A program made the position numbers. 12,738 nt of DNA, from positions 1 to 12,738 of IMG/VR virus record IMGVR_UViG_2802429224_000008; one strand, 5' to 3'. Shown piece after piece: positions 6,001-9,000 of this stretch (the stretch's first letter is position 1; the number at the start of each line of letters is the position of its first letter). The DNA comes from a virus (lineage: Duplodnaviria > Heunggongvirae > Uroviricota > Caudoviricetes).

Positions 6001-9000
6001 AGCATGTTTTTTACGTGCTGATGTTCCAGCCTGAAAGCGAAGAAGATTAATTTTTTCTCGCGTGTAGGGTGAAAATTTTGCGGGTTATGCGGGTTATTTC
6101 TGTGGATAAATCAGTATCCATATGATTATTAAAGGAATGACAGGAAAATCGTAACCCGCAAAATACCCAAAATAACCCGCAAAACGGCAGTTATAACCCG
6201 CAAAAGTGCGATTATAACCCGCAGAATTTCACAGTAAGGGTGTAAACAAGCGTAACTATCAACGTTAAAACCGGAGAGCAGACAGCATGACAGCACAGAT
6301 AGCGGCTTACGGGCGGCTGGTGGCTGACCCGCAGTTAAAGACCACCAGCAAGGGGACACAAATGGCGATGGCGAGTATGGCGGTTCCCCTGCCGTGCAGC
6401 CAGGCAGATGACGGAACGGCGACGATGTGGTTATCCGTCCTGGCGTTTGGCAGACAGGCCGACGCACTGGCAAAGCACCAGAAAGGCGAACTGGTGAGCG
6501 TGGCGGGTAACATGCAGGTAAGCCAGTGGACAGGTCAGAACGGCGAAACGCGGCAGGGCTGGCAGGTTATCGCAGACAGCGTAATCAGTGCGCGGACGGC
6601 GCGACCGGGCGGCAAAAAAGGCCAGCAGGGCCAGGCTACTGACGCACTGAACAGGGCGAAACAACAGACAGGCCAGCACGATGACCCGTACGGGGATAAC
6701 ATACCGTTTTAATTCACAGCAGCGAACAGAGTAATTACAGGGGAAGGCATGACAAAGCTGACCATTAACCGAAAACCGAAAGGCATTTACGGCACGCCGC
6801 AGAAAACGACGCAGGCGGCACAGCAGCAGGATAAAACCACGTCGGCGCATAAAGTGATGCCCGATAATCAGAACGCACAGCAGAGCCGCAAACAGAAGCC
6901 CACTGGGGTGACACCGTGGCGGCATATGACCAAACGCCAGCGCAAAAACCGCAGACGCGTTAACCGCCTCACTGAGTTGTGGCCTGACTTATTCAGCCGG
7001 GAAGCACCGAAGCCGCTTAAGGTGGGGATATTCGACGACCTGATGCAGGATCTCGCCGTCAGGGGGCTGGCATTCGGGCCAGGGGCATTACGTGCGACGC
7101 TGGCATCTTATGCGCAGTCTCCGCGCTATTACCGCGCCTTAATGGCTGGTGGTGCACGTTACGACCTGAAAGGCCAGCCATGTGGAGATGTGACACCACA
7201 GGAACAACAGGACGCAGAAACGCGGCTGATGATGCTGAATGAGAAGCGCAAGCATCAGGCGGCAAAGGAGAAGACAGGCGCATGATTCGTGACAGCAAAG
7301 CGGAAGAACTGGAGACTAAAGGCCTGTACCGGAGAGCGGCGGCGCGGTGGGCTGAGGTCATGCAGCTGGTGAACACCGATAAGGAGCGCGAACAGGTGGC
7401 AAAGTGTCGCGCGGAATGCATCCGTAAGGCAGCACGCCCACCTGTTATGGCGGATAACTTCGGGGCACTGAAAGAGGCTGTAAACCGCACTCATGCGGTG
7501 ATGGGGATGGAAGACGCGGGTAAATCCGTCTGGCGGAACTACCCGAAGCAGCCTGGCAGTAACCAGTGATGCCGGATATTATCCTGAAAAATGACCATCA
7601 CTCCCGTGGGCGGATAATATAAAATCCCGCATATGCGCACATACACAGACGAAGCCGGAACACTCCGGCTTTTTTTACGGGTCCTCCTGATGGGGTACCC
7701 TTACCGCGGGGCGACGGACGCGCGGGAATCGCCAAATTTTCGCATTTTTATCGGTCATCACCACCAGCGCAATTTATTGATAATGAAGGTTAAAAAAATT
7801 CCTGGTGTCGAAAACGCCTGTTTTTTGTTCATCACTGAATCATGCGCATCATGATACCAGGATACCCGGTATTGCTGCGTGATAACCCACAGGGCTGGTG
7901 ACGATGCGTTATGGTCTGTGCGTTGCCATCCTCCTGACCTGATGGCATTATCCGGCATGAACGAGCGGTTATTCTCCGTACTCTTAATCGTTGTTCATGG
8001 TTATTTGCTTTGTGGTAGCTGACATTTCCTGATGGCTTTTATCCTTCCGCCCCGTAATCACGGGGTATTTTTTTATCTGTGATTTGTTGTTCTTCGCTGT
8101 GTTGGTATGGGGAGTTCTGGCAATGATTCAGGCCGTCGCTTTCCTGGTACGTGATTTTTTACGTTCATTATTGTGCTGGTGGTAGTGTCACGGCACGTCA
8201 CGATATGTCACTATCACGTCACGCTGATGGCAAAAGCCAGGGTTAACCAGTACCGGAACGGGTAGCCCGATGTATTGTTACCGTCCTGCCGGCTGGTGGA
8301 GTAATTGATAACGGTTATCATCAACGGGAGGGGAGGATCAAATCCCTGTAGTCCTGGCCGTCCGGGACCGCCCGCCAACCCTTCTTCGCATCGCCGCAGG
8401 TTCGAAAACTTTTTTTGGGAAGGTGCGCACAGAGTTGATAGATAAAACCTATCAGAAGAAGTAGCATCAAACCCGCGCCATTGCTGGCATCGTTAAAAAA
8501 ACTCACTCCACCAGCAGGCCAAAAAACCGTGATTTTTCCGGTTTTATGGGCTGAAAAGGGTCTCCCTAAAAAACACCTCTCACACTGTCGGAGGGGATGG
8601 ATAATTTTCACGGGTCCTTTCCGGAGGTCTGAATACCGGGGGTACGGGTACGCGCAATTCTCAACTGTTTATGAAAATTTTTCGGGAAAAGTCAGATCCG
8701 TTCTTCTTCTCTGTAACTCATTGTTTAATCGTAAAATCATCAAAAAAAGAAAGGATCTGACAGTGGTCATTCTGGGCTAAAAATGACGTTATCAGATCCT
8801 TTCTCAGTTTTGTTCAATAATTGCGCGGCTGTCACTCACCTTTCTGTTGCCGTAATTTCTCCGGCACGTTTCCGGTTGTTTCCATCAGGTAGTCCTTCAG
8901 AATGCGGGGCAGGTTATCGGCAGTTTTAGCGCACGCATTACAGACGCGTGCTGTTTCTTTCCTCAGGCCCTCGATCATTGCCGGAGTCATCGCGGGGAAC

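What the first reader, a model, noticed from the sequence alone, without database searches (positions are those of the whole stretch)
6076..6222. Iteron origin with inverted and direct GCGGGTTAT repeats flanking an AT-rich spacer
Two tandem GCGGGTTAT copies (6080-6097) face four direct ATAACCCGCAAAA copies spaced at about 21 bp (6151-6222), with a 50-bp AT-rich segment between them that could act as the unwinding element. The position immediately 3' of the primase/helicase gene matches the ori arrangement of P4-like and PICI replicons.
Basis: partly seen in the sequence, partly recalled or inferred. Interest (0 to 1): 0.5.

Follow-up and report, generated by a model that had tools for sequence, protein, structure and literature searches.

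The report
Replication origin of a phage satellite
The repeats are real and are almost certainly the replication origin of a phage-inducible chromosomal island in E. coli, a kind of origin described in 2018, so this is a well-supported but ordinary finding.

Summary
The 9-mer TAACCCGCA occurs exactly six times in the 12.7-kb window, and all six copies lie in 6079-6223. Two are tandem copies on the minus strand. Four are plus-strand copies 21 bp apart. A 55-bp spacer of 30% GC separates the two groups. The array begins 29 bp after the stop codon of a 707-aa DUF927 helicase gene.

The window is a Gram-negative phage-inducible chromosomal island (PICI). Its helicase is a sequence homologue of SaPIbov1 Rep (PDB 8tch) and of SCCmec Cch. 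PICI origins with two iteron sets flanking an AT-rich region just 3' of rep were described by Fillol-Salom et al. 2018.

New comparative support comes from 84 homologous loci in about 40 Enterobacterales genera. 75 of them have the same layout, but the repeated word differs by lineage. The word tracks only the last ~110 residues of Rep (partial Mantel r=0.68; the helicase core gives -0.04). An E. albertii relative has swapped exactly the Rep C-terminal domain plus the iteron region.

Two corrections are needed. This Rep has no recognisable primase domain. In P4 the region 3' of alpha is crr, not ori.

Verdict: new member of a known kind, low to moderate interest.

The parts
3927..6050 (+). rep: 707-aa initiator-helicase. 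It has a DUF927 / MCM-like AAA+ core at aa 167-434 and an intact Walker A motif (SSAGKTT). It has no recognisable primase domain.
   Evidence: Pfam DUF927, E=1e-45. Matches PDB 8tch SaPIbov1 Rep at E=4e-13, or 9e-16 with a profile, and 5dgk Cch. The N-terminal 166 aa have no Pfam hit. phrog_1139 is matched only from profile position 243 onward.
5724..6047 (+). Coding region for the Rep C-terminal domain (aa ~600-707), the inferred iteron-recognition domain.
   Evidence: Identity in this segment tracks the iteron word, and the rest of Rep does not. The segment is swapped together with the iterons in E. albertii L006. The low-confidence model shows helix-helix-beta-hairpin topology, and its only significant PDB match is the Cch C-terminal part.
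6079..6096 (-). Left arm: two tandem iterons TAACCCGCA (6079-6087 and 6088-6096), 9-bp period, pointing toward the spacer.
   Evidence: The same position (+22 to +32 after the stop codon) and the same 9-bp period recur in homologous loci.
6097..6151 (.). AT-rich spacer (30% GC), the inferred DNA unwinding element.
   Evidence: The equivalent spacer in 70+ homologous loci is mostly 42-56 bp (up to about 75 bp in a few) and 7-36% GC.
6101..6109 (-). Perfect DnaA-box consensus (TTATCCACA on the minus strand) at the left edge of the spacer.
   Evidence: It is retained as TTATACACA in L002 and L003. Shuffled spacers produce one in 0.4% of cases. It is restricted to this clade.
6122..6135 (+). ATGATTATTAAAGG, the local version of a spacer core (~TGATTTATAAGG) that recurs across iteron classes.
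6152..6223 (+). Right arm: four direct iterons TAACCCGCA at 6152, 6173, 6194 and 6215 (21-bp phasing, two helical turns), plus a degenerate copy at 6164-6171.
   Evidence: Spacings of 11 and 21 bp dominate the right arm in homologous loci.
6287..6712 (+). ssb: island-encoded single-stranded-DNA-binding protein immediately downstream of the origin.
   Evidence: Pfam SSB, E=4e-16. The same gene order is seen in all E. coli relatives examined.

Best explanation
The segment 6079-6223 is the vegetative replication origin of a Gram-negative phage-inducible chromosomal island.

Proposed mechanism: after helper-phage induction, the island's Rep protein (3927-6050) is made. Rep is a self-loading MCM-like hexameric helicase of the DUF927 / SaPIbov1-Rep / Cch family. 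Its C-terminal ~110 residues, probably a winged-helix domain, recognise the 9-bp iteron TAACCCGCA. Rep assemblies bind the two inverted copies on the left and the four helically phased copies on the right. The 55-bp AT-rich spacer between them melts, and helicase rings are loaded for bidirectional replication. The island's own SSB, encoded just downstream, coats the unwound strands.

This Rep lacks the primase module of its relatives, so priming presumably relies on a host or helper-phage primase. The DnaA box in the spacer may recruit host DnaA.

Shown here: the repeat anatomy, Rep homology, conservation of the layout, and co-inheritance and covariation of the iteron word with the Rep C-terminal domain.

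Inferred: binding, melting, the initiation site, and any role of DnaA or a host primase.
For: 1. Anatomy. There are six exact 9-mers, confined to 145 bp, two inverted facing four direct, around a 30% GC spacer and 29 bp after the rep stop codon.

2. Context. The window is a PICI with this gene order: integrase, Icd-like/Ash region, DUF4222, rep, ssb, proQ, perC, terS. Relatives sit at tRNA-Pro/yejM and other PICI att sites. Capsid-forming PICI relatives, including the O157:H7 island, carry the same rep and the same iterons.

3. Rep homology. Rep aligns over aa 210-604 to the solved SaPIbov1 Rep (8tch, E=9e-16) and to SCCmec Cch (5dgk). About 100 C-terminal residues are left over in both proteins.

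4. Published model. SaPI Rep C-terminal winged-helix domains bind iterons that lie just 3' of rep, with at least two on each side of an AT-rich region in opposite orientation (PMC9371898). E. coli PICIs 'always' have two iteron sets flanking an AT-rich region, and the EcCICFT073 rep-ori drives plasmid replication (PMC6092414).

5. Layout conservation. In 75 of 84 homologous loci an 8-mer is repeated 4-13 times within 600 bp after the rep stop, against 2-3 times in control regions. The first copy lies at +22 to +32, the left arm has a 9-bp period, and the right arm has 11/21-bp spacing.

6. Word diversity. The repeated word differs by lineage: TGAACCAACA, TGAGACAACA, TGGGACAAG, TGAACCGAC, TGACACACT, TAACCCAC, TAACCCGT and others.

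7. Covariation. Iteron similarity correlates with C-terminal-domain identity (rho 0.75). The partial Mantel r is 0.68 given the core, with 0 of 2000 permutations reaching it. It does not correlate with the core given the C-terminal domain (r=-0.04). The signal peaks at aa 653-707.

8. Natural swaps.
- E. albertii L006 is 90-98% identical in DNA on both sides but 26-58% identical over 5701-6300, which is the Rep C-terminal domain plus the iterons. Its iteron is TGGGACAAG.
- Budvicia L064 has a 57%-identical Rep but a 78-85%-identical C-terminal domain, and its iteron is TAACCCGT.

9. Neighbouring proteins do not track the word. SSB, ProQ and PerC are about 90% conserved across the L006 swap. 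DUF4222 is 83% identical between islands with different iterons and 52% identical between islands with the same iteron.
Against: - No experiment covers this allele. Replication has been shown only for the EcCICFT073 rep-ori, which has a different helicase family and different iterons. Induced replication of EcCIEDL933 has been shown, but its origin was not mapped.
- The C-terminal-domain structure model is low confidence (pLDDT 40-64), so the winged-helix assignment is tentative.
- This Rep has no primase module, so how synthesis is primed is unknown.
- Covariation proves a Rep C-terminal domain/iteron partnership. It does not prove that initiation occurs here.
- Nine of 84 loci showed no clear array by the simple exact-8-mer count. 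Some of these are truncated contigs or have degenerate copies.
Confidence: 0.85

Rival explanations
1. The array is a Rep-binding site that is not the initiation site. It would act as a cis-acting enhancer like P4 crr, or as a copy-control, handcuffing or autoregulatory iteron set, with the true start elsewhere.
For: In P4 the iteron region directly 3' of alpha is crr, and the annotated ori is elsewhere. Iterons in plasmids also mediate copy control (general knowledge). The covariation data show binding partnership only.
Against: No second cluster of the 9-mer exists anywhere in the 12.7-kb window. The only other matches are scattered one-mismatch singles. The AT-rich spacer sits between opposed iteron sets exactly as in the mapped SaPI origins. 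The homologous protein family is SaPIbov1 Rep, not P4 alpha.
Confidence: 0.07
2. The repeats are operator sites for a transcription factor that controls the downstream ssb-proQ-perC genes.
For: The array lies in the intergenic region upstream of ssb. One weak sigma-70-like match (6137-6164) overlaps the first right-arm repeat.
Against: The promoter count is no higher than in shuffles (1 found versus 0.6 expected). The repeat word covaries with the Rep C-terminal domain. It does not covary with SSB, ProQ or PerC, which stay about 90% identical across the L006 swap, or with DUF4222. Arrays of 6-13 sites with an AT-rich gap are atypical for an operator.
Confidence: 0.03
3. The inverted repeats act through nucleic-acid secondary structure: a cruciform or ssDNA hairpin, an RNA element, or a terminator after rep.
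For: The region folds far better than shuffles as ssDNA (-36.3 kcal/mol, z=-6.3). Simultaneous change of both arms between lineages mimics compensatory change.
Against: The good fold follows trivially from repeats present in both orientations. The right arm has two more copies than the left, and 11/21-bp helical phasing has no role in a stem. No terminator-like site was found and there is no Rfam match. The word tracks a protein domain.
Confidence: 0.02
4. The repeats are a packaging (pac/cos) or recombination site, or neutral repeat debris.
For: The island encodes a TerS homologue (8832-9416, minus strand), so a packaging site must exist somewhere.
Against: The position is fixed relative to rep, not to terS, across about 40 genera, and the layout is highly conserved. 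Capsid-forming and classical PICIs with different packaging modules share the same array. Chance is excluded.
Confidence: 0.02

Closest known systems
SaPIbov1 Rep and its ori (staphylococcal pathogenicity islands; Ubeda et al., as summarised in PMC9371898; structure PDB 8tch)
   Same: The initiator-helicase is a sequence homologue (E=9e-16 over aa 210-604). In both, the ori lies immediately 3' of rep, iterons in opposite orientation flank an AT-rich region, and a ~100-aa C-terminal domain lies beyond the helicase core. Here that domain tracks iteron identity, as shown experimentally for SaPIs.
   Different: The host is Gram-negative. The iterons are 9 bp rather than 5-6 bp. The right arm is strictly phased at 11/21 bp. 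There is a different N-terminal domain. A DnaA box sits in the spacer. There is no separate pri gene.
EcCICFT073 pri-rep-ori and the E. coli PICI origins of Fillol-Salom et al. 2018 (PMC6092414, Fig. 2)
   Same: Both are the same element type, with the same gene order (DUF4222, rep, ori, (orf), ssb, perC) and the same origin design. The Rep N-terminal ~120 aa are shared.
   Different: The CFT073 Pri-Rep helicase is of the D5_N/DUF5906/Pox_D5 (SF3) type, not DUF927. Beyond the N-terminus the proteins are unrelated (28% identity over the aligned part). The CFT073 iterons are CTGTCTACC/GGTAGA. Only the CFT073 replicon has been tested experimentally.
Satellite phage P4 alpha / ori / crr
   Same: P4 is also a satellite replicon in which one protein combines origin recognition and helicase functions, with 8-bp iterons in both orientations immediately 3' of the gene.
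   Different: There is no significant similarity between this Rep and alpha. P4 is bipartite, with ori annotated at 9086-9809 and crr at 4291-4590, about 4.5 kb apart. The window has a single cluster. Alpha carries an active primase and this Rep has no recognisable one.
SCCmec Cch helicase (PDB 5dgk)
   Same: It belongs to the same DUF927 / MCM-like family. It is the only significant fold match for the modelled C-terminal 228 aa (E=5e-4).
   Different: Cch belongs to a staphylococcal cassette chromosome. No comparable iteron origin was examined here.
Iteron plasmids with DnaA boxes (pSC101, R6K, RK2, P1, F)
   Same: Direct iterons lie next to an AT-rich DUE with an adjacent DnaA box (general knowledge; box found).
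   Different: Those initiators are small Rep_3-type winged-helix proteins that need the host DnaB and its loader. Here the initiator is itself a helicase, and the iterons flank the DUE in opposed orientation.

Membership tests
PICI/SaPI-type replication origin | Located immediately 3' of the replication initiator (rep) gene | tested here: met
   The first iteron starts 29 bp after the rep stop codon. It lies at +22 to +32 in 71 of 75 homologous loci.
PICI/SaPI-type replication origin | [quoted passage not shown] | tested here: met
   There are 2 copies on the minus strand and 4 on the plus strand around a 55-bp, 30% GC spacer. The criterion is quoted.
PICI/SaPI-type replication origin | The cognate initiator is a Rep helicase homologous to SaPI Rep proteins | tested here: met
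   Matches 8tch (SaPIbov1 Rep) at E=4e-13 with a single sequence and 9e-16 with a profile. Pfam DUF927 at E=1e-45.
PICI/SaPI-type replication origin | The Rep C-terminal domain determines iteron specificity | tested here: met
   Met by comparative inference only. Partial Mantel r=0.68 for the C-terminal domain against -0.04 for the core. Cassette swaps are seen in L006 and L064. Binding was not measured.
PICI/SaPI-type replication origin | The C-terminal domain is a winged-helix fold | tested here: inconclusive
   The model has pLDDT 40-64 in aa 600-707. Its topology is helix-helix-beta-hairpin, and its only significant PDB hit is Cch.
PICI/SaPI-type replication origin | The fragment supports Rep-dependent autonomous replication | not testable with these tools
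   This needs a plasmid maintenance assay, as was done for EcCICFT073.
Gram-negative PICI (host element) | Integrase at the left end, unidirectional rightward genes, a rep-ori module, accessory and packaging genes, about 10-15 kb, at a PICI-specific att site | tested here: met
   The window's gene content is given. Close relatives are bounded by tRNA-Pro/yejM-yejO and by ilvG/yifB. Helper-phage induction was not tested.
P4-type replicon | An alpha-type initiator with primase plus an SF3 (D5-like) helicase | tested here: not met
   There is no significant similarity to P4 alpha. The core is DUF927, not D5_N/Pox_D5, and there is no primase domain.
P4-type replicon | Bipartite cis elements: an ori plus a distant crr, both carrying the iteron | tested here: not met
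   There is a single cluster of the 9-mer in the 12.7-kb window. The P4 layout is shown.
Classical iteron plasmid origin | A small Rep_3/RepA-type initiator encoded next to direct iterons | tested here: not met
   The adjacent protein is a 707-aa DUF927 helicase, and no Rep_3 hit was found.

The most novel reading that the evidence does not exclude
In this sub-lineage the Pri-Rep protein has lost its Zn-ribbon/Toprim primase module, and the origin has gained a DnaA box inside the unwinding spacer. The satellite would then have moved from a fully self-contained primase-helicase initiator to a hybrid origin that needs host DnaA and a host or helper primase.

More generally, the Rep C-terminal domain plus the iteron region behaves as an exchangeable specificity cassette. 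More than 15 iteron words occur across Enterobacterales. This could let several PICIs coexist in one cell without origin cross-talk.
Probability: 0.2. Interest if true: 0.45.

Novelty: new member of a known kind. Interest (0 to 1): 0.25.

Why it matters
The result gives this common E. coli island family a defined origin. About 237 of 5,426 complete E. coli genomes carry most of this rep-ori segment. The family includes the capsid-forming PICI of O157:H7. The result also predicts the Rep-iteron specificity code. That is useful for annotating satellites, for predicting incompatibility between co-resident islands, and for building PICI-based delivery vectors with orthogonal origins. It does not change the current understanding of how such origins work.

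Tried and rejected
- Structure prediction of full-length Rep from 18 sequences failed outside the N-terminal domain (mean pLDDT 46). A second run on the C-terminal 228 aa with 102 sequences gave only pLDDT 40-64 in the last 100 residues. The winged-helix claim therefore stays tentative.
- A Foldseek search with the full-length model gave no significant match for the confident N-terminal domain.
- The 2018 paper's supplements hold no iteron sequences. I could not tell whether TAACCCGCA was among the origins drawn in its Fig. 2a.
- No paper for PDB 8tch was found in the library.
- DnaA-box involvement across the whole family is rejected. The exact box occurs in only 5 of 75 loci, all from one clade.
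- An IHF site in the spacer was considered by eye and not supported.
- Terminator and Rfam RNA readings are rejected.
- DUF4222, SSB, ProQ and PerC are rejected as the iteron-binding partner.
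Full report
**1. Observation**

- GCGGGTTAT occurs in tandem at 6080-6088 and 6089-6097. Read on the minus strand this is TAACCCGCA at 6079-6087 and 6088-6096.
- On the plus strand the exact 9-mer TAACCCGCA occurs at 6152, 6173, 6194 and 6215, each 21 bp apart.
- These six are the only exact copies in the 12,738-bp window. With one mismatch allowed there are 11 sites, against 3.4 +/- 1.9 in shuffles, and none of 200 shuffles reached 11.
- The intervening 55 bp (6097-6151) are 30% GC, while the flanks are 42-64%.

Minor corrections apply. The 13-mer ATAACCCGCAAAA is exact only for the two middle right-arm copies. The last copy runs to 6226. A degenerate copy (TACCCAAA, 6164-6171) lies between the first two right-arm copies. 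In relatives L002 and L003 the first two right-arm copies are 11 bp apart. The window therefore carries a 10-bp insertion that preserves helical phase.

**2. Context**

The window is a Gram-negative phage-inducible chromosomal island (PICI). Its genes are:

| Coordinates | Strand | Product |
|---|---|---|
| 1-1242 | + | P4-type tyrosine integrase |
| up to 3930 | + | Small genes, including a DUF4222 protein |
| 3927-6050 | + | 707-aa DUF927 protein |
| 6287-6712 | + | SSB |
| 6749-7285 | + | ProQ/FinO protein |
| 7282-7569 | + | PerC homologue |
| 8832-9416 | - | TerS homologue |
| 9964-10782 | + | K88/F4 fimbrial subunit gene |
| 12367-12738 | + | Second PerC-like gene |

Close relatives in complete E. 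coli genomes are bounded by tRNA-Pro/yejM-yejO or by ilvG/yifB. The same rep-ori-ssb segment also occurs in capsid-forming PICIs, including the O157:H7 island between roxA and phoQ. Of 5,426 complete E. coli genomes, 882 match part of 5900-6400 and 237 match at least 80% of it.

**3. The adjacent protein**

The DUF927 protein aligns by sequence to two solved structures.
- PDB 8tch is described as the initiation-of-replication protein with helicase activity of SaPIbov1. It matches at E=4e-13 with one sequence and 9e-16 with a profile, over query aa 210-604 and chain residues 99-477 of 580.
- PDB 5dgk is the SCCmec Cch MCM-like helicase.

Both the query and SaPIbov1 Rep have about 100 residues left beyond the aligned core.

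The protein is not demonstrably a primase.
- Residues 1-166 and 434-707 match no Pfam family.
- It matches PHROG 1139 ('DNA primase', 895 positions) only from profile position 243.
- Most homologues in other genera are about 900 aa and carry Zn_Ribbon_Prim plus Toprim_3 at the N-terminus.

Instead, the window's N-terminal ~125 residues form a confidently predicted alpha/beta domain (pLDDT 80-90). This domain is shared with the otherwise unrelated Pri-Rep of EcCICFT073. It has no significant PDB fold match.

**4. What is already known**

Fillol-Salom et al. 2018 (PMC6092414) state three things:
- In Gram-negative PICIs the region immediately 3' of the initiator gene is the origin.
- The EcCICFT073 rep-ori segment drives plasmid replication, dependent on both rep and ori.

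Qiao et al. 2022 (PMC9371898) summarise the SaPI model:
- The Rep C-terminal winged-helix domain recognises the iterons.
- Six to twelve iterons lie just downstream of rep, with an AT-rich centre.
- At least two iterons on each side point in opposite directions.
- Rep is a self-loading helicase.

I read EcCICFT073 directly (L005). It has the same gene order and origin design. Its helicase is of the D5_N/DUF5906/Pox_D5 type, and its iterons are CTGTCTACC/GGTAGA.

**5. Comparative test**

A scan of one genome per species returned 80 loci (L006-L085) encoding relatives of this Rep, in about 40 Enterobacterales genera. I added the four E. coli loci L001-L004. I then counted the most frequent 8-mer, on both strands, in the 600 bp after each rep stop codon.
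- It occurs 4-13 times in 75 of 84 loci.
- In control regions inside rep, or 1 kb further downstream, it occurs 2-3 times.

The layout is nearly invariant:
- The first copy lies 22-32 bp after the stop codon.
- Two or three copies sit on one strand with a 9-bp period.
- A gap follows, mostly 42-56 bp (up to about 75 bp in a few loci) and 7-36% GC.
- Three or four copies sit on the other strand, spaced 11 and 21 bp apart.
- About half of the loci (40 of 75) have a second, similar module further on.

The window has the short form.

The repeated word differs by lineage. Examples are TGAACCAACA (the commonest), TGAGACAACA, TGGGACAAC/G, TGAACCGAC, TGAACCACG, TGGTACAAC, TGACCCGAC, TACCCGAC, TGACACACT, TAACCCAC and TAACCCGT, besides TAACCCGCA here.

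**6. Which protein reads the word**

Identity to the window's Rep was computed by segment.
- E. albertii L006 is 92-100% identical over aa 143-560 but only 39%, 40% and 15% identical over aa 600-640, 640-680 and 680-707. Its iteron is TGGGACAAG.
- Budvicia L064 is only 57% identical overall but 78-85% identical over aa 600-680. Its iteron is TAACCCGT.

Across 72 loci (2,556 pairs):

| Comparison | Result |
|---|---|
| Iteron similarity vs C-terminal-domain identity | Spearman 0.75 |
| Iteron similarity vs core identity | Spearman 0.43 |
| Iteron ~ C-terminal domain, given core (partial Mantel) | r=0.68; 0 of 2000 permutations reached it; largest permuted value 0.275 |
| Iteron ~ core, given C-terminal domain (partial Mantel) | r=-0.04 |

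A sliding window places the peak at aa 653-707.

At the DNA level, window and L006 compare as follows:

| Window coordinates | Identity to L006 | Content |
|---|---|---|
| 4301-5700 | 84-98% | rep core |
| 5701-6300 | 26-58% | Rep C-terminal domain plus the whole iteron region |
| 6301-6700 | 82-96% | ssb |
| 6701-7500 | 66-91% | proQ and perC |

The diverged block is inherited as one cassette.

The neighbouring proteins do not track the word. SSB, ProQ and PerC are conserved across that swap. DUF4222 is 83% identical between the EDL933-type and CFT073 islands, which have different iterons. It is only 52% identical between the window and the EDL933-type island, which have the same iteron.

The C-terminal-domain alignment shows a conserved scaffold (AGYR...FYTFP...EIAxGFN...AGML). 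The following basic segment and beta-hairpin are class-specific. The low-confidence model gives helix-helix-hairpin topology. Its only significant PDB match is the C-terminal part of Cch (E=5e-4).

**7. Mechanism**

The best-supported explanation is that 6079-6223 is the island's vegetative origin. Rep hexamers are positioned by C-terminal-domain/iteron contacts on both sides of the AT-rich spacer. The spacer melts and the helicase self-loads, as proposed for SaPIs. The island SSB gene is immediately downstream. Binding, melting and the initiation site are inferred. I put this at about 0.85.

**8. Rivals**

- A P4 crr-like cis element, or a copy-control array that is not the start site. This is not excluded. 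It is disfavoured because the window has no second cluster and the protein is of the SaPIbov1-Rep type, not the alpha type. The P4 record shows that crr (4291-4590) lies 3' of alpha (4636-6969, minus strand), while ori is annotated at 9086-9809.
- An operator for ssb. This is disfavoured by the covariation partner and by the lack of promoter enrichment.
- A hairpin, cruciform or RNA element. The strong ssDNA fold (z=-6.3) is an automatic consequence of repeats in both orientations. The phased extra direct copies, the absence of a terminator and the absence of an Rfam match argue against it.
- A packaging site or chance. Both are excluded by the rep-anchored conservation.

**9. Novelty and score**

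The kind is known and the layout is as published. What is added here is in-silico evidence for this DUF927 allele, a catalogue of iteron words, and the C-terminal domain/origin cassette. I file it as a new member of a known kind, with interest 0.25.

The most novel reading still open concerns the loss of the primase module together with a DnaA box in the spacer.
- The box is perfect (TGTGGATAA, 6101-6109).
- It is expected in 0.4% of shuffled spacers.
- It is retained in L002 and L003 with a change only at the degenerate position of the consensus.
- It is absent from 54 of 54 primase-containing loci.

This combination may mark a shift toward host-dependent initiation. The support comes from essentially one clade.

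Noticed in passing
window 6101-6109: A perfect DnaA box (TTATCCACA on the minus strand) lies at the left edge of the AT-rich spacer. Relatives L002 and L003 keep it as TTATACACA although the rest of their spacers differ. An exact box is found in 5 of 13 primase-less Rep loci, all from one clade, and in 0 of 54 primase-containing loci. 82 of 20,000 shuffles of the spacer produce one.
   Followed up: partly
window 3927-4424 (Rep aa 1-166): This Rep lacks the Zn-ribbon plus Toprim primase module that ~900-aa homologues in other genera carry. In its place is a ~125-aa alpha/beta domain, predicted with pLDDT 80-90, that is shared with the otherwise unrelated EcCICFT073 Pri-Rep. The domain has no Pfam or PDB match and its function is unknown.
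   Followed up: partly
window 5701-6300 versus L006 (Escherichia albertii): A recombination cassette is visible. DNA identity is 84-98% over 4301-5700 and 82-96% over 6301-6700, but 26-58% across the block that covers exactly the Rep C-terminal domain and the iteron region.
   Followed up: yes
window 6122-6135; spacers of L006-L085: A semi-conserved spacer core (~TGATTTATAAGG; here ATGATTATTAAAGG) recurs about 25 bp left of the first right-arm iteron, across loci with different iteron words. This suggests a site read by a conserved part of Rep or by a host factor.
   Followed up: partly
window 6161-6172: Relative to L002 and L003, a 10-bp insertion containing a degenerate iteron (TACCCAAA) changes the spacing of the first two right-arm iterons from 11 to 21 bp. 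Helical phase is preserved.
   Followed up: partly
L003 8100-8520 (O157:H7 island) and 39 other loci: Long-form origins carry a second module, giving 8-13 iterons in total: extra copies in both orientations, a second AT-rich gap, and a terminal triplet with a 9-bp period. The window has only the first module.
   Followed up: partly
L020/L022, L066/L084, L054/L085, L018/L029: Four genomes each hold two Rep loci. In three of them the two loci use different iteron words, and in one they use the same word. This hints at origin orthogonality between co-resident islands.
   Followed up: no
window 9964-10782, 6749-7285, 7282-7569, 12367-12738: The island carries several accessory genes: an orphan K88/F4-type fimbrial subunit gene, a ProQ/FinO RNA chaperone homologue and two PerC-family activator homologues.
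   Followed up: no
window 1968-3170: This 400-aa GTG-started ORF has no Pfam hit. Only its last ~90 residues match phage 'transcriptional repressor' PHROGs. Relatives annotate short Ash-family and Icd-like genes at this position, so the long ORF is probably over-called.
   Followed up: partly
phage hits H21-H23: A 106-kb Klebsiella phage record (PQ569648) and two short 'phage' records carry about 70%-identical copies of this rep gene. These may be satellites packaged or co-assembled with phage DNA.
   Followed up: no
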